DNA of 64,000 nucleotides from the human T2T-CHM13v2.0 reference genome, Homo sapiens. The notes beneath the pieces are model-generated. The model had not been told where the DNA came from and did not search any database. It was given only the letters and a program-made list of their open reading frames with translations. Within the stretch, counting starts at the first letter, position 1. Each line of letters starts with the position of its first letter. Where the stretch lies: NCBI RefSeq assembly GCF_009914755.1, contig NC_060929.1; one strand, 5' to 3'. Both the position numbers and the translations under genes were made by a program. This document shows, piece by piece, positions 31,160-46,156 of the stretch.

Positions 31160-32593
31160 GTATGCATCCTTGGAAGTCCACACTGGGCTGCACTTGAGGT
31201 ATAGGGGTGTAACATTGGAGGACTCCAGTTTCCTGATAGGTCTGTGCCCTTAGGTATGGTGGATGTTTTGAAAAAGTCACCAACTTGCCGGCATCTCTGC
31301 TATCCCTTCCATCGGCTTGTCAGGCTTTGAGACCCCACAAATGAACAAGTAGAGCAGCTGAACTGTCCTGGCCCACCAAACCTAGAGACCTGAACTCTTG
31401 ACAGATACATCTGGCCTCACTGGTTGATGACAGATGCTACCTCTCTCTAAACAGGGGCATCTGCTGTTGAGCAAGGAAAAAGGCCTCCCAAACCATGTGA
31501 CTTAACATCCACCCCAAGCAATTATGTCTAAGAAAGCTGCTTGAGACTTGAGGACTTGGCTGTGTCAATGAAGCTGGTCCTTGGGAACTCTGGGACCCCT
31601 GAGAGGGACAGGAGGGCCATGTGCTGGGGGTAAAGTACAAGGGGCCCATGAGCATTTCAGGCATGGCTGGATGGCTGAATTTCACTGTGGCATCTGTTCA
31701 GGAGGAGATCATCTCCTAATACCCTTTCCAAGCTTTCCTACCTCCCTCCAACTTCTCCCAGTTTGGGGATGGTGAAATCACTGCCATTGCCACGGGGGTC
31801 ACCCTTAGCTGATCTCTGGGTCTGAGGAGGCAGGGAAGAAGTTGTGTGTCCAGTTCCAAACCTTCAATAAAAATGTTTTAAACTCCTGTTTATTAGAATA
31901 GAATTAATGCCCAAGTTGCTTTTGTCCAACTAAAAATCAAGTGACCCTTTTTCTGGAGGTTATAGTAATACTTCTGTTTATCTAAAAACATAGGATCAAG
32001 CCTTTAATGTACTTGGTACTCAAATGTTTACTCATAGACAAGCCTCATTAGTCCCTCTGTGGGAAAAGCCATAGTTTTTCCAGAACTGAACCACCTTCAA
32101 TCAAGGTTGAAGGAAATGTGTTTGCAGTTGCGATGCTAAAAAACCCATAGGAGGTTTTATCAATGTGTCTGGTACAGACTAGGAAGCTCAAAAGCATAGT
32201 TTTTTTCTCTATGCCCAGTACCCACGGTAGGGATCAGGAATAGGGAGAGGCAGAACCCATGGCTCCTGGAAAGCTTGGGGTGAGTTCTTGCAGCTGAACA
32301 GGGGAGATGGCACAGCCCCAGCCTCCAAAGCACCTTTGGGTATGAGCTAGCATGCAGCTGGGGGATCAAGACCCGGTTTCAGAGGGGGACCATGTGATGT
32401 TCACTACATAACTACCTGAGGATTTGACAGATAGCCAAGATCTGGTTTAGTATTTCTTTCAGAAGCATTTTCTGTGGCAGGCCACAGGAAGACAACTCCA
32501 CTAAGGTCATGAATGCCCAGTCCCCATGGGTAAGAAAACAAAAGCTACTATGACATGATGTAGGGCTTTGGCCTCTTTATTTTCTTTTTACAG

Positions 32594-32734
32594 TTTATTC
32601 CACAAGTAAAAGACTTCACAAAGCACTATGGCTCTGACTATTCCCCGAATGAGCTGCTGAGGATGGAGCTGGCTATTCTGGACAGACTGCACTGGGACCT
32701 CTATATTGGGACGCCGCTGGACTTCTTGACTATA
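32594..32734 (+). CDS. CCNI2: CCNI2 coding exon 4
   Basis: ttttacag|TTT...ATA|gtgagt; 141 nt; ...ELLRMELAILDRLHWDLYIGTPLDFLTI, the classic cyclin helix-5 ME..IL..L.W.L...TP..FL motif. Confidence 0.94.
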
Positions 32735-33702
32735 GTGAGTAAGGAGGTGTTTACAGAGTCTACCCTAAACTCGTTTGTGCCTTTGGAACAGCTGTTTACA
32801 ACATGGGATGGCAAAGCACAGGCGTGCACACGCCCTTGCACATGCACCACAGTGAGGTGACGCACAAGGCTCATGACATACGGAAGAGTGAAAAGGTATC
32901 TTAAATCCAACACAGTTCCACCAGACTCCCACTTCTAAAGGACATTAAATTAACTTTACAAAGATTTTTAGACGGCACTATTATGGTGAGTTTCTCTTTT
33001 AAATACACACTGCAAAAATATTTAACTTTCCATTCTATGAATACTGTACATAAATATCTGTCTGCTTTTGCTACACTTTACACACATTCACTTAGCTGTC
33101 TTTATTCACCTACACACAATCCTTATTGAAGCTTTAGACCATATTGATCTGGCACTTAAAAAAATATCATACATTAGTTTGTATTTGTTTTAGTTGGGGG
33201 AATGATGGTCATCCTTAAGGATATGATTCTGTTAGTAAGGCAAAATTATGCAATGTGGAAATCTCATGGGGTTTTGGTTTGTTATGAAGCATGAAGATTA
33301 AATTACTAAAGACTGTTTCATTACGAAAACTGGCCACCGTTGCCAAGTTGCAGAGTTTCGTCTTATGATAAGCAGATACAAGTAACTTTTCTGCTACCTT
33401 GGTCTTGAATAGTATGTTTCTATTTTTCAGAATGGAAACATTGTCATCTAGGTACTTTCCGCTCATAACGATGATGTCACAAAGCAGACTTTTTTTTTTT
33501 TTTGGTCCCGGAGTGGAAGCTCAGCTTGGCCACAGGATGGGCATTAAGCCTCAAGCCCCTTACGGAGCCATGGATAGGAATGAAAAGGGTTGGGCAACAT
33601 TTGATGTTCCCTGATGGAAATTTAAATTGTTTGCACTTTTGATCATTGATATAGGAAAAGTATGGCGTTTTCTGTTCTAACATTAAAAACCATGGTCTCC
33701 AG

Positions 33703-33933
33703 TTCCATGCCCTGGTGGTCCTGAGCTGGCCCCATGTGTTGGAGCTGCTGCCTCAGAGGAATCCTTCCCTCCACGTCGCATCCCTGACCAGGCAGCTGCA
33801 GCACTGTATGGCGGGCCACCAGCTGCTGCAGTTCAAGGGCTCCACACTGGCCTTGGTCATCATCACCTTAGAGCTGGAGAGGCTCATGCCCGGCTGGTGT
33901 GCTCCTATATCTGATCTGCTAAAGAAAGCACAG
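33703..33933 (+). CDS. CCNI2: CCNI2 coding exon 5 (second cyclin fold)
   Basis: ctccag|TTC...CAG|gtagac; 231 nt; [10 protein letters not shown]...[21 protein letters not shown]...LLKKAQ (ORF 33715..33996). Confidence 0.92.
33753..33918 (-). CDS. SEPTIN8: SEPTIN8 distal last exon (NRSDIG...REGFL*, 483 aa), antisense within CCNI2 exon 5
   Basis: tgctttctttag|C AGA TCA GAT...; AA+C=Asn, then 54 codons and TGA (ORF 33753..34097); total 483 aa; the tail matches the canonical SEPT8 C-terminus as I recall it. Confidence 0.85.
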
Positions 33934-37700: not shown

Positions 37701-37757
37701 AATCAGAAAAGCTACTGCCCAAAAAAGACACCACAAAAACTCAAAATAAATGCAAAA

Positions 37758-37763
37758 TTTAAT
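37758..37763 (-). terminator. SEPTIN8: Candidate distal poly(A) signal ATTAAA of the long SEPTIN8 3' UTR
   Basis: ATTAAA on minus followed by a strong U/GU-rich downstream element (ttttgagtttttgtggtgtctttttt). Confidence 0.45.
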
Positions 37764-39894
37764 GAAAAAAATAAGTACAAAGTGAATGGAAAAGAACAAA
37801 AACAGTCAATGAATGCAGGAGTAAATGAATTAACACGTGAAGCAATTTTAGAAAAGCATGTTAACGTAACAGACTAGCAAGCCACACTTCCTCAGGCCTC
37901 GTATCCATGAGCCCCACTTAACAGGGAGCCCACATTTACACATACACAAACATATGCAGTCAGTAATGCACAATTACAAACCACCTAGATCAGGGTACCC
38001 ACAACTAGAAAGAACATATTTCCACATCGGCCTGGGACAGGTCTGGTTTATGCCTTTTGATCTGGTGTAATTAATAGCATCCCCTTTCTCTCTCAATAGT
38101 CCCAATTTGGGCAACGAATTATATGGTGATTCTTCTACCTCAAACAAACATGGTTTATGATAAAGACATGATAGTAAATGCCAACATGATCCTGTAAGAC
38201 AGCCCTAATAAAGCCAACAAATGACAATGAGAAAAAGAGGGGTAAATGAGACTCTGCAGACAGGGTCACATTCTATGGGGGCTAACTTACTAAACAGTGG
38301 CAAGTTTTAAGCTCACTTTATGCACCAAGGTTTAATTTGGTCTCAGCTAAAGAAGACAAAATTCCAAACACAAACAGCAGGGGAGAGGTGCAGTGAGGCT
38401 TGCTGGAGGGACCTGTGGAGGCAGCTCAGACCAGAAAACACAAGTCTGTCAAGTGTCCTGAAGATCCTGGGAAGGCTTAGGCCCGCAGGCAGCCAGCCAC
38501 GAGTATGGCCTTTCAGTATGCCTGGGGTGCGACCCGCAGGCCACAATGGACGAATGGCCAAGTCTGCATACTCCAGAGTCCTAGGTTGGCCCATGAACCA
38601 GGAATTCTCATTTCTTATGTATCCAATGAACCTGCTGGGTCACCAGGCCTCATCTTCATAAATATGTTAGCTGAGAGAGGCTATCTTAAAGGTCATGCTC
38701 TGACCCAACTGCATACACTTTCAGACATAAAATTACCCTAGAGATGAGCCATTGGCAGCCCACATTTGCCCTGGATATGCCAGTTTACCTTTTTAGATAC
38801 CCTCACTGAAGCATCAGTTTTCAATTGCAACCAGATACGGACTTATTGTGACGCTAAGGAAGCTTAATCTTCAGGGCCCCTTCCAAGACCCTGTACCTAA
38901 TTTTATATTAACATTGTTTTTCTTAAAGAAGTCTTTCTAAATAATTCAAGCTTTCAGCCCCATAAAATTTAGATCCACCCCTGGTCATAGCATAAAAAGT
39001 TGAATTGTCACTAGAACCTGCTCTGCTGCTGGAGCATGGAGCCCCTCACAGGTAAAGGCTGCCTCTTCCTGGCCGTGCCTCGGTGGACACACACAGCTCA
39101 CCCCTCCACTTCTCCCTGAGCAGAACATCATCTCAGGAAGGCAGGAGGAAGCCAGGACTTGGTCCTGGAAATCAATAATGCAAGCCAGACAGAAAGGGGG
39201 AAATGGTCATGAGAAGGAAGACAGGGGCATGAAAAGCAAACTACCAATTCCACAATAAATTAGCACGTCTTCCTGAGGCTTCCAGCCAGGGAGTAGGCTA
39301 GACTGTGAGCTCCTTGAGGGGAGCGTTGTGCATTCCTCTGGGTAGCTCCAGTGCCCAGCACGGTGCTTCAACATTAAAACTACCCTTCCTTTCATTTAGT
39401 CATTTTACATCTCCCATTTTACCAGGCCGTATTCTCAACACTGACATTCTTGGTGGCTTGTAAACCAACAGGAGCATAGAAGAGTCAAAGCTGCTAGTAC
39501 TTCCTTAAAATGTTCCCCTTTAGAGTGCAGCTGAAGGGGAAAGCTCCTTTGCCGCTCATTTTTCCCTAATTGTCTATATACATCAGACACCTTCATCTCT
39601 TCACCCTGTGACCCAGCCAGGAAAGAAGCAATGACTTTGAGGTAACAACCTTTTTCCCACTGAGTACTCTTTACATTTGGAATATGCAGGATTTGCTTGG
39701 GAGTCTTAATTGGAGTCAAACACTTAACACACACACATGGAGTTGGTCCCTGTCTACAGGTAGCACCTCTGGGGCACAGACAACAGCTTTGGGCTGCTGT
39801 TCCATTTACATTCACAGTAAAAACGCTGGACATGGTCTTGTTCATGTTCCAATTCCATCCATAAAGAAATGCCAAACACTGTCATTACAGGAAG

Positions 39895-39900
39895 TTTATT
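39895..39900 (-). terminator. SEPTIN8: Candidate proximal SEPTIN8 poly(A) signal AATAAA
   Basis: AATAAA on minus followed by GU/U-rich gtgtttggcatttcttt, a few hundred nt past the 429/442-aa stops. Confidence 0.55.
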
Positions 39901-40250
39901 ACCCACCTCTCCCTGTATATGATAGGCATACTTTATACATAAGAAAGGTTTAGCTGTATTTTTAGTTTTTAAAAATCAGGGAATCTGTGTTACTTATGAA
40001 AATAATGGGAGAGGATATTATTTGTCTTGACGCTGGTGCCAAAATAAATATTTAGAAGTGTTTTAAAGTTATTAAAATTAAGCTGTAGGTTAGAAAAATT
40101 AAAATGAGGGGAACTGGGTGAATTTTGCAGCATGTATACCAGACCACGCAGCTGCACCTAGGGCACCACGTGAGTTGCCATCTCCACGCTGAACAATTAG
40201 GCCTAGCATCCCGGCTGGGGCCTTCGCTAGAGCGGCACATAACAGCTCCG

Positions 40251-40293
40251 TCAGGGAATAGTGACACTGTAAATGGAAGACCAGCCACTGGCT
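40251..40293 (-). CDS. SEPTIN8: SEPTIN8 alternative last exon (KASGWSSIYSVTIP*, 442 aa)
   Basis: tttatttttttcag|A GCC AGT GGC TGG...CCC TGA, in phase with the exon 9 donor; matches my recollection of a SEPT8 isoform end. Confidence 0.75.
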
Positions 40294-40557
40294 CTGAAAA
40301 AAATAAACCTCGTCAGTTTTGGATTCCAGCATTCATGGCTTTTACGTGTTTGCATAGAGAGGGGTGGCCCGCCAGGCCCGGGGCAGCCTGGGGCCAGGGT
40401 CGGTGGGAGGAAAGCAAGGCTGTAAACACTGGAGTCTGTACCGGCTCCCAGTCCGTCCTCACACCATGTTATGGGAGAAGGGTCACAAGGTGTAACTCAA
40501 GCAACTTAACACATGAAAGTCTAAAGTCCACTCTTGACATGTAAGTCTGTGCGTGCG

Positions 40558-40561
40558 TTAA
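40558..40561 (-). CDS. SEPTIN8: SEPTIN8 alternative last exon, coding part (AA+T=Asn, TAA; 429 aa ending KKN)
   Basis: Very long U-rich tract ...ttttatttttcag|T TAA, followed by 3' UTR-like sequence; resembles the KKN end of SEPT6-group paralogues. Confidence 0.75.
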
Positions 40562-42538
40562 CTGAAAAATAAAAATAAAACAAACAAAACAAAAACAGAC
40601 ACATTAAAAGATATGCAGACCAAATCAAACAGAAGCAAAAGACAGCAAGATGGACACCGTGAAAGGGCAGTCAGTTTGGCATTTGTGACGAGCAAAGCAG
40701 AGAATTCACCTCAGTTTGTGGTGTCCCAGGCTAAGGGTCAAGATCTGATTGGGAAGTAATTTTGCAAAAAATTTGGATTCAAATTTAAAGAGTATGCATA
40801 ACCAATCAAAACCACTCAAATAAATGGTCATGAAAAACACCCCTGCCCCCATTCCAAAAATGCACTCCCGACTCACACTAGTCCCTTGACCAGGGCGGCA
40901 GGAAGGAGTACTCCCAGTCAACCCACCTACCCCATTCCTGGCCTCCACAGAGCCGTCATGGGAAGAGCGTTTTCTCTCCCAGGGACCAAACTGACTGAAG
41001 CTTTCTAGCAGGTCCAGAGAACAGGAAAGACCTGTTTTCCAGGCCCAGGCCTGGAGAACGTATCATGGAGCCCAGGCCACATGGGAAAAGCAGGGAGACC
41101 AGACACCAGTGACAAGCCCCCACCCCGAGGGCTGTGCTGGTGTCCTTTCAGCCTGCCTGCACCCACCTTCACTGGCCCTCAGACCCTGAACTGGCCACAG
41201 ACCCCTGTCTGCAGTTGCTGAGTGGTTTCTCCACAGCTTATTTCCTAGGGAATCCTGGCTACCTTTTCTTTAACAAGATGGCAGGAAGCAGGGCAAAGTC
41301 ACTTTGGGTGCCAGTACCTGGGTCACAGACTCCCGCTGGCCCTAATGGCTAGGCTCCATTGCCACCAAGGAAGGAAGGGCCTGGGCATACACATCCCCAA
41401 ATATCCCAGGAGGAAATGGATCCCGAGAATGATGGCCAGGTTGGGTTCACCTGCTTAGTTCCTAGGTTGGCAAGAGAAGGATGGTACCCAAGATAGGCCG
41501 GGGCAGGGAGAAGCAGGGATGGATGGGATCCCCACAGTGTGACATAGCATGGCTGTGAATGAGGTGGGTGGGCGAGGGTGAGCCCCAGAAGCCAGGACAT
41601 CTGGACTCCAGCTAAGGGTGTGGAAACAGGCTATGAAGATCGCCAGGGAGAAGTGACTCATAGTTGTCCCCACCTGACTACTCCGTTGACTGCACTCCTG
41701 GTGCTGGGAAAGGCCTCCCTGCCATCCAGTCTTTCTCTCCTCTCTCCACTCTGCAGGAACAACTCCAGCCTCTACTTGAGGGGCAGCTCTTCTCCCCAAA
41801 AGAACCCACAGAGCCCCTGTGGGAAGCCGCTTTCCTCCCTTAAGCCCTGCGGGCCCTTCAGAACAGCTGTGTGGTGACCAGTCTCCAGGAGGCCAGTGTT
41901 GGCTGGCGCGAGTGCCCGCAGTTCTCCATCACCACCTGCCAGCCAATACGGGCTCCACACCACTGCCCCACAGACTGAGGAGGGATGCGCCACAGGTGTC
42001 CAAGCAGAAACCACCACGGCTTTTGGAATCTGGCTGGAGATGCTGACATTCCCAGGTCCTGTCCCGCCCCTGGCCTGAAAGACCATTCCCAGCATTCCCA
42101 GAGCCCTGCAGCTTCGCCCTCTCCACGCTGCTCCTCACCCGTGCAGCCCCACCTTCACCACGCTGCAACAGGGCCACAGCTGCCAAGGGGGCTATGGGAG
42201 AGCGAATGGGTGAGCAAGAAAGTTGGAGGAAGAGGAAGAAGGGGGAAGAGAAGGAGAGAAAAAGGGAGAAGGGAGAGGGAGGGGGAGCACAAGATTGCCT
42301 GTGCAAGTGAGACTGCATGAGTATCAGAGCAATCCAGACGGCGAGACACTGGATCACTAGTGAAAGAAAAAGGCAACCAAGAAAGCTGGGGGGAGAGCCA
42401 CTGAAGATGAGGGAAAACCAAACAGGAAAGGGGTAAGAGAGGGCGAGCAGGAGAGCGAGAAGGGAGGTGAGGGACAAGAACGAAAGCAAGAGCCCACAGG
42501 AGCAAGAGGAGCCAGCGCAGGCGCAGCCTGCCACCTAC

Positions 42539-42729
42539 TTCTTCTTGTCCTTGTCCTTCCTCAGGGGCTGCTGCGAGGTGGCGTGCAAGGCCTGCGACTG
42601 CAGGGCCTCCACCGCAGCCTTCCGGCGATTGAAGGCGTTGGTCTCCTCCTCCAGTTCCCGGCGCTTTTCCTCCACCTTGCGCTTCTCCTCCTGGTGGACC
42701 CGCTTCAGGTGCTCAAACTTCTCATGGAG
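42539..42729 (-). CDS. SEPTIN8: SEPTIN8 coding exon 9 (coiled coil; phase-2 donor shared by alternative tails)
   Basis: tgccag|CTC CAT GAG...AAG AAG AA|gtaggt; [18 protein letters not shown]...[11 protein letters not shown]; cumulative CDS 1286 nt. Confidence 0.95.
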
Positions 42730-45960: not shown

Positions 45961-46156
45961 CTCTCATCCTTATTGATCTGATCCCCAAAGCCCACGGCAT
46001 CCACAATGGTCAGCTTGAGCTGCACGTTGCTCTCCTGGAGGTCATAGGTCTGGGGCCGCAGGCGCACGCATGCCTCATGGTGACTGGCTTCCTCAGTCTC
46101 GAAGGTCGTGTTGAAGAGTGTGTTCATCAGTGTGGATTTGCCAATGCCGGTCTCCC
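45961..46156 (-). CDS. SEPTIN8: SEPTIN8 coding exon 3 (G1 [10 protein letters not shown]3 DAVG); ends at a GC donor
   Basis: gcccag|GG GAG ACC GGC ATT GGC AAA TCC...GAT GAG AG|gcaaga; 196 nt; phase fits exon 4. Confidence 0.93.

What the first reader, a model, noticed from the sequence alone, without database searches (positions are those of the whole stretch)
33753..33918. Dual-coding DNA: the SEPTIN8 long-isoform tail is overprinted antisense on CCNI2 coding exon 5
Seen: the SEPTIN8 exon 9 donor (AA|gt, 42539) splices in phase to a minus-strand acceptor (ttctttag, 33920-33919), giving [55 protein letters not shown] (483 aa). All 166 coding nt lie within CCNI2 exon 5 (33703-33933). The acceptor's pyrimidine tract is the complement of the CCNI2 codons for L-K-K-A, and the third codon positions of the two frames coincide. 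Established: antisense CDS-on-CDS overlap is rare in vertebrates, and the plus frame is homologous to cyclin I, so it is the older frame. Inference: the septin tail arose de novo by overprinting. I recall the 483-aa isoform being annotated, so the novelty lies in origin and constraint, not existence.
Basis: partly seen in the sequence, partly recalled or inferred. Interest (0 to 1): 0.8.

Follow-up and report, generated by a model that had tools for sequence, protein, structure and literature searches.

The report
Septin-8 tail written antisense on cyclin-I2
The last 55 amino acids of the long form of human septin 8 are encoded on the opposite strand of a coding exon of the neighbouring cyclin gene CCNI2, and this two-way use of one stretch of DNA is real, functional and at least as old as bony vertebrates.

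Summary
The SEPTIN8 exon 9 donor (42539) joins in phase to the minus-strand acceptor at 33918, giving a 55-residue tail and a 483-aa protein. All 166 coding bases lie inside CCNI2 exon 5, with third codon positions coinciding.

An open antisense frame alone is not surprising: 48% of synonymous resamples keep it open. The evidence that it matters is comparative.
- The tail occurs only in septin-8, from mammals to frogs and teleosts.
- Septin-8 tails and CCNI2 exon-5 peptides of the same bird or mammal species fit one DNA in the human register with 0 of 54 conflicts. Teleost pairs give 0-3. Shuffled tails give about 47.
- The cyclin frame is older. The chr4 paralogue has a homologous 77-codon exon whose antisense frame holds 4 stops.
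- In CCNI2 the overlapped codons are 1.5-1.8 times better conserved than the cyclin box. In other cyclins the ratio is 0.6-1.2.

The isoform and its function are known. I found the overprinting origin and dual constraint in no paper. It is a new member of a known kind, closest to THRA/NR1D1.

The parts
33753..33918 (-). Coding part of the SEPTIN8 distal alternative last exon (mouse 'exon 10b'). It gives 55 tail residues (N429-L483) and the TGA stop at 33753-33755.
   Evidence: sequence and spliced translation. The hub annotation is NM_001098811.2. The tail is conserved in septin-8 from mammals to teleosts.
33792..33803 (-). Codons for C468, C469, S470 and C471. The Cys-Cys pair is homologous to the palmitoylated C469/C470 of mouse SEPT8-X1. 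It is written antisense to CCNI2 codons L32-Q33-H34 of exon 5.
   Evidence: One search gives the codon map. The CC pair is invariant in the 9-sequence alignment and is present in every tail listed. Palmitoylation was shown in mouse only (PMC6092797).
33919..33933 (-). 3' splice site (AG at 33920-33919) and polypyrimidine tract of the distal last exon. It is the complement of CCNI2 codons 73-77 of exon 5 (L-K-K-A-Q). A tandem acceptor (tagCAG) allows a second start at 33915.
   Evidence: These 5 codons are 5/5 identical in all 23 CCNI2 orthologues compared. Majority-residue frequency is 0.98, against 0.54 in other cyclins. The hub lists an exon 32561-33915. Orthologues P0005 and P0013 read KKKSDIG.
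33703..33933 (+). CCNI2 coding exon 5: 77 codons, phase 0. It encodes the start of the second cyclin fold and is the older reading frame.
   Evidence: There is a homologous exon on chr4. Cyclin_C covers the homologous region in P0174 and P0236.
32556..33752 (-). 3' UTR of the distal SEPTIN8 last exon. It runs antisense through CCNI2 intron 4 and all of CCNI2 exon 4 (32594-32734). AATAAA signals start at 32599 and 32581.
   Evidence: Hub annotation; for the poly(A) signals.
42539..42729 (-). SEPTIN8 exon 9. Its donor (AA|gt at 42539) feeds all the alternative last exons.
37741..41461 (-). Proximal alternative terminal exons (mouse 'exon 10a' type). Acceptors at 41461, 40561 and 40293 give very short tails (KN, N, KASGWSSIYSVTIP). 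The poly(A) signal ATTAAA is at 37763. Skipping this poly(A) site is required to reach the dual-coding exon.
   Evidence: Hub annotation. The mouse mechanism is described in PMC6092797.

Best explanation
This is a genuine antisense dual-coding exon that arose by overprinting.

Origin. A septin of the SEPT6 group and a cyclin-I-type gene were already convergent neighbours. Septin transcripts that ran past the proximal poly(A) site captured a 3' splice site lying antisense inside the cyclin's exon 5. The polypyrimidine tract is the complement of Lys-Lys codons, and the AG is the complement of a CTN Leu codon. The antisense frame whose third positions coincide with the cyclin's was open, and it became the C-terminal tail of septin-8. 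This happened before ray-finned fish and tetrapods split (inferred).

Function. The tail carries a Cys-Cys pair with nearby basic residues. In mouse this motif is palmitoylated, acts as a filopodia-inducing motif and promotes dendritic arborisation. Its use there is switched on by NOVA blocking the proximal poly(A) site (shown in mouse in print; inferred for human from the same exon architecture and a nearly identical tail).

Present state. The DNA now serves two proteins plus a splice site, and the younger septin reading appears to be the stronger constraint. The overlapped codons are by far the slowest-evolving part of an otherwise fast-evolving CCNI2. The tail also persists in murid rodents although CCNI2 is reported missing from mouse and rat.
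For: Anatomy.

Older cyclin frame.
- The chr4 paralogue exon has the same length and boundaries: 41 of 77 residues identical, E 5e-18.
- All 10 distant relatives tested carry Cyclin_N, and Cyclin_C spans the homologous region in 2 of them.

Younger septin frame.
- The only significant hits of the tail in the human genome are itself and the antisense of the chr4 cyclin exon (52% identity, with stops). All other hits have E > 1.
- The paralogue's antisense frame has 4 stops.
- The tail has no Pfam family.
- Every named hit among 24 of 24 candidates and 61 of 727 candidates is septin-8.

Age. Tails are 96-100% identical to human in primates, horse and fox, 89% in gerbil and naked mole-rat, 74-78% in birds, gharial, echidna and a caecilian, 57-65% in frogs and 58-73% in teleosts. 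28 of 54 positions are invariant in a 9-sequence alignment.

Same DNA, same register. I tested whether one DNA can encode both peptides.
- Human gives 0 of 54 conflicts. 300 shuffled tails give a mean of 47.5 and a minimum of 41.
- Same-species pairs give 0 of 54 in Equus asinus, Microcebus murinus, Corvus moneduloides and Pardalotus punctatus. The same peptides paired with the human partner give 2-10.
- Unnamed teleost-type ccni2 fragments against teleost tails give 1/54 (P0179 with the cyprinid tail P0018), 2/54, 3/54, 0/41 and 0/37. Against the human tail they give 18-21/54 for the three complete fragments and P0182, and 12/37 for P0227.
- Over 186 cyclin segments the best-partner count is bimodal: 60 at 0, 40 at 1, 15 at 2 and 9 at 3. 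The CCNI-type and other non-CCNI2 cyclin segments score 13 or more.

Extra constraint.
- Human CCNI2 against 13 mammals: cyclin box (exons 2-4) 61-83% identical, overlapped 55 codons 49-53 of 55.
- Human CCNI2 against 10 sauropsids: box 47-52%, overlap 44-45 of 55.
- The overlap/box identity ratio has mean 1.77 and minimum 1.50 in 174 CCNI2 pairs. It is 0.59-1.16 in 55 pairs of non-CCNI2 cyclins.
- The conservation profile steps up at the tail's stop codon: 0.68 for codons 1-17, 0.88 for 18-72 and 0.98 for the acceptor codons.
- Substitutions are more conservative (BLOSUM62) in the septin frame in 35 of 36 lineage pairs, which are not independent.

Function and persistence.
- PMC6092797 (passages): mouse exon 10b is used in 65% of motoneuron Sept8 transcripts. 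C469/C470 are palmitoylated, an isoform-specific antibody exists, and the isoform rescues dendritic arbors.
- The motif spacing C,C,R+6,R+11 is identical in human (C468, C469, R474, R479).
- PMC5256034 (passages) states that CCNI2 is absent from the mouse and rat genomes.
- 0 of the 120 CCNI2 hits listed is named as a muroid, while a murid septin-8 with the tail heads a 417-member cluster.

Convergent septin-cyclin neighbours occur on both chr5 and chr4.
Against: - No orthologous DNA could be read. Overlap in other species is inferred from protein pairs.
- The teleost ccni2 fragments are unnamed, so species matching is not verified, and 1-3 conflicts remain.
- The open frame in human is not improbable by itself (P about 0.48).
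- Many tails are automatic gene models that may be guided by homology.
- The region is also the best-matching exon between CCNI2 and its chr4 paralogue. Some of its conservation is therefore intrinsic to cyclins.
- The CCNI2 set was retrieved with exon 5 as the query, and it was selected by compatibility with tails. Both choices favour conserved exon 5 sequences.
- Xenopus tails found no compatible CCNI2 partner (best 13 conflicts). The murid tail's best partner has 3.
- No human junction reads or peptides were examined.
- The YCAY count around the human proximal poly(A) site is not enriched: 7 per 300 nt against a mean of 5.3, and 32% of windows reach 7.
- Absence of CCNI2 in mouse and rat rests on one paper's statement.
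Confidence: 0.84

Rival explanations
1. The overlap is older than the duplication that produced SEPT8/SEPT11 and CCNI2/CCNI. On this view the ancestral septin already read its tail antisense on the ancestral cyclin-I exon, and the chr4 pair later lost it.
For: Septin and cyclin-I-type genes are convergent neighbours on both chr5 and chr4. The antisense of the chr4 cyclin exon still reads a peptide 52% identical to the tail.
Against: That similarity follows automatically from DNA homology of the two cyclin exons. The chr4 antisense frame has 4 stops, one of them where the CC motif would be. No septin other than septin-8 was recovered with the tail or its profile. No cartilaginous-fish or lamprey sequence was named among the hits, so the question is open rather than settled.
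Confidence: 0.12
2. The tail is a passenger. On this view its conservation merely mirrors purifying selection on CCNI2 exon 5, and the long isoform has no function of its own in human.
For: The open frame is expected by chance in about half of synonymous versions. Almost every non-synonymous change in one frame changes the other: 307 of 324 first- and second-position changes are non-synonymous in both frames. Conservation of one frame therefore forces conservation of the other.
Against: The rest of CCNI2 evolves fast, and the homologous region of other cyclins is less conserved than their box. The tail persists in murids although CCNI2 is reported absent from mouse and rat. Palmitoylation, an isoform-specific antibody and a dendritic phenotype are published for mouse. 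Substitutions are more conservative in the septin frame.
Confidence: 0.03
3. The septin frame is the ancestral one, and the cyclin exon was overprinted on it.
For: None found, beyond the stronger present-day constraint on the septin reading.
Against: The cyclin reading is homologous to the chr4 paralogue exon and to Cyclin_C regions of distant cyclins. The septin reading has no homologue outside septin-8.
Confidence: 0.01

Closest known systems
THRA (TR-alpha-2) / NR1D1 (Rev-erb-alpha) antisense coding overlap
   Same: Two convergent protein-coding genes are involved. An alternative last exon of one gene overlaps the 3' coding exon of the other on the opposite strand, so the choice of terminal exon creates a different C-terminus. 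Sources: abstract of PMC4569393 and the search-listing abstract of PMC3047299.
   Different: The TR-alpha-2 overlap evolved within mammals and is absent in platypus (abstract). The septin-8/CCNI2 overlap is found from mammals to teleosts. Here the overlapped partner gene is itself dispensable in some lineages. Regulation by antisense pairing is documented for THRA and was not tested here.
[quoted passage not shown]
   Same: One frame has deep homologues and the other is lineage-restricted, which is the standard criterion for telling the ancestral frame from the novel one (abstracts in the listing).
   Different: The overlap is antisense rather than same-strand. It adds a tail to an existing protein through splicing instead of making a new protein. 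The novel frame seems to be the better-conserved one.
Palmitoylated filopodia-inducing motifs (Gauthier-Campbell et al. 2004, seen only as reference 62 of PMC6092797)
   Same: Two adjacent cysteines with nearby basic residues. Human has C468, C469, R474 and R479, spaced as in the mouse motif C469, C470, R475, R480.
   Different: The motif is encoded on the antisense strand of another gene's coding exon. Palmitoylation of the human protein was not examined.

Membership tests
Antisense CDS-on-CDS (dual-coding) exon | Both strands carry an open, spliced-in-phase coding frame over the same bases | tested here: met
   166 nt, 483-aa and 369-aa products, third positions coincide.
Antisense CDS-on-CDS (dual-coding) exon | Both readings are made into protein | not testable with these tools
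   From print only. The mouse SEPT8-X1 tail is detected with an isoform-specific antibody and acyl-RAC (PMC6092797). CCNI2 protein is detected in chicken tissue and CCNI2 was depleted by siRNA in human cell lines (PMC5256034). No human junction or peptide data were seen.
Antisense CDS-on-CDS (dual-coding) exon | The overlap and its register are conserved in other species | tested here: met
   0/54 conflicts in 4 same-species pairs (2 birds, 2 mammals) and 0-3 for teleost-type pairs, against about 47 for shuffles. The evidence is at protein level only.
Antisense CDS-on-CDS (dual-coding) exon | Constraint exceeds what one frame alone explains | tested here: met
   Overlap/box identity ratio is 1.50-1.8 in CCNI2 and 0.59-1.16 in other cyclins. 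The conservation profile steps up at the tail's stop codon. The synonymous-rate test was not possible.
Origin by overprinting | One frame has homologues that predate the overlap | tested here: met
   The chr4 paralogue exon has the same 77 codons and boundaries. Cyclin_C covers the region in distant cyclins.
Origin by overprinting | The other frame is restricted to one lineage or paralogue | tested here: met
   Only septin-8 carries it. No other human septin locus matches. Pfam finds nothing. Its absence from sharks and lamprey is not established.
Origin by overprinting | The equivalent frame is closed in the non-overlapped paralogue | tested here: met
   There are 4 stops in the chr4 exon's third-on-third antisense frame.
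Origin by overprinting | Compositional or codon-usage asymmetry between the old and new frame | not tested
   55 codons are too few for a meaningful test.
Palmitoylated filopodia-inducing motif | Adjacent Cys-Cys with nearby basic residues | tested here: met
   Human has C468, C469, R474 and R479. CC is invariant in the alignment and in the tails. The first basic residue is K in birds and H in teleosts.
Palmitoylated filopodia-inducing motif | S-palmitoylation and filopodia or dendrite phenotype | not testable with these tools
   Shown for mouse SEPT8-X1 only (PMC6092797).
NOVA-controlled alternative last exon | Proximal terminal exon with a poly(A) site embedded in a YCAY cluster | tested here: inconclusive
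   Human has the same proximal/distal architecture, with ATTAAA at 37763 and 6 YCAY in the 80 nt upstream. However, 7 YCAY per 300 nt is reached by 32% of windows in the gene.

The most novel reading that the evidence does not exclude
The overprinted septin frame has become the main selective tenant of this DNA. It has kept a 55-codon piece of a cyclin exon nearly frozen for more than 400 million years (date recalled) while the rest of CCNI2 drifted. In murid rodents it survives as the only function of that sequence after the host gene CCNI2 was lost. That would make it one of the oldest antisense dual-coding exons known in vertebrates, and a case of a de novo frame outliving its ancestral frame.
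Probability: 0.55. Interest if true: 0.7.

Novelty: new member of a known kind. Interest (0 to 1): 0.55.

Why it matters
- It gives a clean, datable vertebrate example of a functional protein motif (a lipid-anchoring Cys-Cys signal) born on the antisense strand of an older coding exon. A natural control exists in the non-overprinted paralogue, and a natural experiment exists in lineages reported to lack the host gene.
- It matters for variant interpretation. At the shared third positions only 40% of changes are silent in both genes, against 67% in CCNI2 alone. Five single-base changes that are synonymous in CCNI2 would truncate the septin-8 long isoform.
- It warns that conservation scores over CCNI2 exon 5 largely reflect SEPTIN8.
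- Convergent transcription through a shared coding exon raises the question, open to direct test, of whether CCNI2 expression and the choice of septin-8 terminal exon influence each other, as described for THRA/NR1D1.

Tried and rejected
- Earlier findings of this scan were not open to the session.
- Two calls to the genome search failed because the machine was busy. The same request was answered later.
- Literature searches. CCNI2+SEPT8 gave 6 papers and CCNI2+SEPTIN8 gave 1, all gene lists from association studies judging by title and abstract. Septin+overprinting gave 1 unrelated paper. A broad search on overlapping genes and overprinting listed 15 of 46 papers, none about this locus by title. 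CCNI2/rodents/lost returned nothing useful. SEPT8 transcript variants in human brain returned nothing useful. Supplementary gene-pair tables of overlapping-gene surveys were not opened and could list the pair.
- PMC9004782 lists mouse Septin-8 in a table of its PPT1-substrate study, but the passage seen gives no site.
- Pfam gives nothing for the tail or for exon 5 alone.
- The YCAY count near the human proximal poly(A) site is not above the gene background.
- A synonymous-rate or codon-alignment test, dating in sharks and lamprey, and inspection of the mouse locus for CCNI2 remnants were not possible.
- The Cervus tail P0013 was dropped from the compatibility table because its last residues differ, probably through a model error. 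It had given 4 conflicts with its own CCNI2.
- 3 of the 120 CCNI2 hits, and the segments marked 'gapped', were left out because they did not align to exon 5 without gaps.

Full report
**1. The observation**

- On the minus strand, SEPTIN8 exon 9 ends AAG AAG AA|gt at 42539.
- The distal last exon begins after ctgtgctttctttag at 33918.
- The junction is in phase and reads a 55-residue tail that ends at TGA 33753-33755.
- Joining the hub's coding parts gives 1452 nt, or 483 aa. For CCNI2 it gives 1110 nt, or 369 aa, with every exon in phase 0.
- The 166 septin coding bases lie wholly in CCNI2 exon 5 (33703-33933).
- The third positions of both frames fall on the same bases.
- The acceptor AG and its pyrimidine tract are the complement of CCNI2 codons L-K-K-A-Q.

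An open antisense frame of this length is not remarkable in itself. In this phase a stop needs a T- or C-ending codon followed by Tyr, or a T-ending codon followed by His or Gln. When CCNI2's peptide is held fixed and codons are redrawn from its own usage, 48% of 20,000 versions stay open for at least 54 codons; with uniform codons the figure is 18%.

**2. What is already known**

PMC6092797 (passages read) describes the mouse gene.
- Mouse Sept8 has proximal (10a) and distal (10b) alternative last exons.
- NOVA binds at the 10a poly(A) site, suppresses cleavage and promotes 10b. 10b is used in 65% of motoneuron transcripts and 22% of whole spinal cord transcripts.
- 10b encodes a filopodia-inducing motif (C469, C470, R475, R480) that is palmitoylated.
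- The isoform is recognised by a specific antibody and partly rescues dendritic arbors after NOVA2 knock-down.
- The paper never mentions Ccni2 or an antisense gene: 0 occurrences of either word.

[quoted passage not shown] It also states that human and chicken CCNI2 differ strongly outside the cyclin box.

The human window shows the same architecture as mouse.
- Proximal acceptors lie at 41461, 40561 and 40293 and give tails of 1-14 residues.
- A poly(A) signal lies at 37763.
- The distal exon has AATAAA at 32599 and 32581.
- The human motif is C468, C469, R474, R479, with the same spacing as in mouse.

**3. Which frame is older**

CCNI2 exon 5 finds one strong relative in the human genome. 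It is an exon on chr4 (80395963-80396193, minus strand), with 53% identity and E 5e-18. That exon also has 77 codons and is flanked by ag and gt; 41 of 77 residues are identical. From memory of the map I take it to be CCNI; the tools give no gene names.

A search of 1.84 billion representatives with exon 5 gave 128 hits. Ten full-length non-CCNI2 hits all carry Pfam Cyclin_N, and in two of them Cyclin_C spans the homologous stretch. The plus frame is therefore part of an old cyclin fold.

The minus frame shows the opposite pattern.
- In the human genome the tail matches only itself and the antisense of the chr4 cyclin exon (52% identity, E 2.5e-8, with stops). Everything else has E > 1.
- The chr4 match is a by-product of DNA homology. 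Read in the same phase, that exon has 4 stops, including one exactly where the Cys-Cys pair would lie.
- Pfam has nothing for the tail.
- Every named protein recovered with the tail (24 of 24 candidates) or with a 9-sequence tail profile (61 of 727 candidates) is septin-8.

**4. How old it is**

Identity of the tail to human by group:

| Group | Identity to human tail |
|---|---|
| Primates, horse, fox | 96-100% |
| Gerbil, naked mole-rat | 89% |
| Birds, gharial, echidna, a caecilian | 74-78% |
| Frogs | 57-65% |
| Teleosts of several orders | 58-73% |

28 of 54 positions are invariant in the alignment. All tetrapod tails end at the same residue.

No orthologous DNA is reachable, so I tested the overlap itself through the proteins. 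For a septin tail and a CCNI2 exon-5 peptide, a dynamic programme counts the minimum number of tail residues that cannot be encoded by any DNA that also encodes the cyclin peptide in the human register.
- Human gives 0 of 54. 300 shuffled tails give a mean of 47.5 and a minimum of 41.
- Same-species pairs give 0 of 54 in Equus asinus, Microcebus murinus, Corvus moneduloides and Pardalotus punctatus. The same peptides paired with the human partner give 2-10.
- Unnamed teleost-type ccni2 fragments from the representative search fit teleost tails with 1/54, 2/54, 3/54, 0/41 and 0/37 conflicts. Against the human tail they give 18-21/54 for the three complete fragments and P0182, and 12/37 for P0227.
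- Over 186 cyclin segments the best-partner count is bimodal: 60 at 0, 40 at 1, 15 at 2 and 9 at 3. The CCNI-type and other non-CCNI2 cyclin segments score 13 or more.

The two readings therefore co-vary as they must if they share one DNA, in birds and in teleosts as in mammals. The overlap predates the teleost-tetrapod split.

Septin exons on chr4 (80337240-80371798, plus strand) converge on the chr4 cyclin exon, just as SEPTIN8 converges on CCNI2. The tail-to-tail neighbourhood is therefore older than the duplication. Whether the overprinting itself is older remains open; this is rival 1.

**5. Constraint**

Identity of human CCNI2 to its orthologues:

| Region | 13 mammals | 10 sauropsids |
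|---|---|---|
| Cyclin box (exons 2-4) | 61-83% | 47-52% |
| 55 overlapped codons | 49-53 of 55 | 44-45 of 55 |
| 5 acceptor codons | 5 of 5 | 5 of 5 |
| 17 non-overlapped codons of exon 5 | 8-15 of 17 | 10 of 17 |

- In 174 CCNI2 pairs with box identity below 0.6, the overlap/box ratio averages 1.77, with a minimum of 1.50.
- In 55 pairs of other cyclin I/G-like proteins the ratio is 0.59-1.16. There the region is normally less conserved than the box.
- A per-codon profile over 75 distinct CCNI2 sequences gives 0.68 for codons 1-17, 0.88 for 18-72, 0.95 for the core opposite SKVMM...CLV, and 0.98 for the acceptor codons. In 32 other cyclins the corresponding values are 0.53, 0.61, 0.64 and 0.54.
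- Where the two frames differ between lineages, the septin-frame substitutions have the higher mean BLOSUM62 score in 35 of 36 comparisons among 9 lineages. These comparisons are not independent.

A murid septin-8 still carries the tail, while CCNI2 is reported missing from mouse and rat. No muroid is named among the 120 listed CCNI2 hits. Together this points to the septin reading as the stronger constraint.

**6. Caveats**

- Exon 5 is also the best-matching exon between CCNI2 and its paralogue.
- The CCNI2 set was retrieved with exon 5 as the query.
- The one search set was selected by compatibility with tails.
- Many sequences are automatic gene models.
- Xenopus tails found no compatible partner (13 conflicts). 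The murid tail's best partner has 3.

**7. What the phase implies**

With third positions shared, 65 of 162 possible third-position changes (40%) are silent in both frames. 67% are silent in CCNI2 alone and 57% in the septin frame alone. 307 of 324 first- and second-position changes alter both proteins. Five changes that are synonymous in CCNI2 create a stop in the tail.

**8. Comparison with known cases and novelty**

The closest described case is THRA/NR1D1. There the alternative last exon of TR-alpha-2 overlaps the coding 3' exon of Rev-erb-alpha on the other strand, and the arrangement evolved within mammals (abstract of PMC4569393; listing abstract of PMC3047299). The present case has the same architecture but is far older, and its host gene is dispensable in some lineages.

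The isoform, its annotation and its mouse function are known. No paper in the held library links it to CCNI2 or to overprinting. Supplementary tables of overlapping-gene surveys were not checked.

It is a new member of a known kind.

Noticed in passing
window 33915-33920 (minus strand): There is a tandem NAGNAG acceptor (tagCAG). Using the second AG starts the exon at 33915 and replaces Asn-Arg by Lys. The hub lists an exon 32561-33915. Fox isoform X2 (P0005) and a red-deer model (P0013) read KKKSDIG.
   Followed up: partly
window 45961 (minus-strand donor of exon 45961-46156): The SEPTIN8 intron after this exon begins with GC and not GT, so it is a GC-AG intron.
   Followed up: no
window 32594-32734: The 3' UTR of the distal SEPTIN8 last exon runs antisense across all of CCNI2 coding exon 4 and intron 4. 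The RNA-RNA complementarity between the two mRNAs is therefore much longer than the 166-nt coding overlap (hub table; for the poly(A) signals).
   Followed up: no
G000:C8:56854058-56855233 (outside the window): This is an intronless septin copy, 71% identical to septin-8 over residues 44-436, with 3 in-frame stops. It looks like a processed pseudogene of a SEPT6-group septin.
   Followed up: no
proteins P0007, P0008, P0020 (unnamed sources): These gene calls from short unnamed contigs carry the septin-8 tail and continue through its TGA stop as Trp into the following antisense sequence. Vertebrate DNA in those collections seems to have been translated under a code that reads TGA as a residue.
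   Followed up: no
G000:C4:80501468-80501749 and G000:C5:163976231-163976488 (outside the window): CCNI2 has weak matches (33% and 26% identity) to two further cyclin-like loci, one about 105 kb from the chr4 cyclin exon. From memory these are CCNG2 and CCNG1. This is consistent with chr4 and chr5 being duplicated blocks.
   Followed up: no
proteins P0289, P0290, P0293 (Xenopus septin-8): Xenopus tails are the most divergent tetrapod tails (57-58% identical to human). They had no compatible CCNI2 partner among 186 segments; the best had 13 conflicts. This may mean that ccni2 is absent or very divergent in Xenopus, or merely missing from the sets searched.
   Followed up: partly
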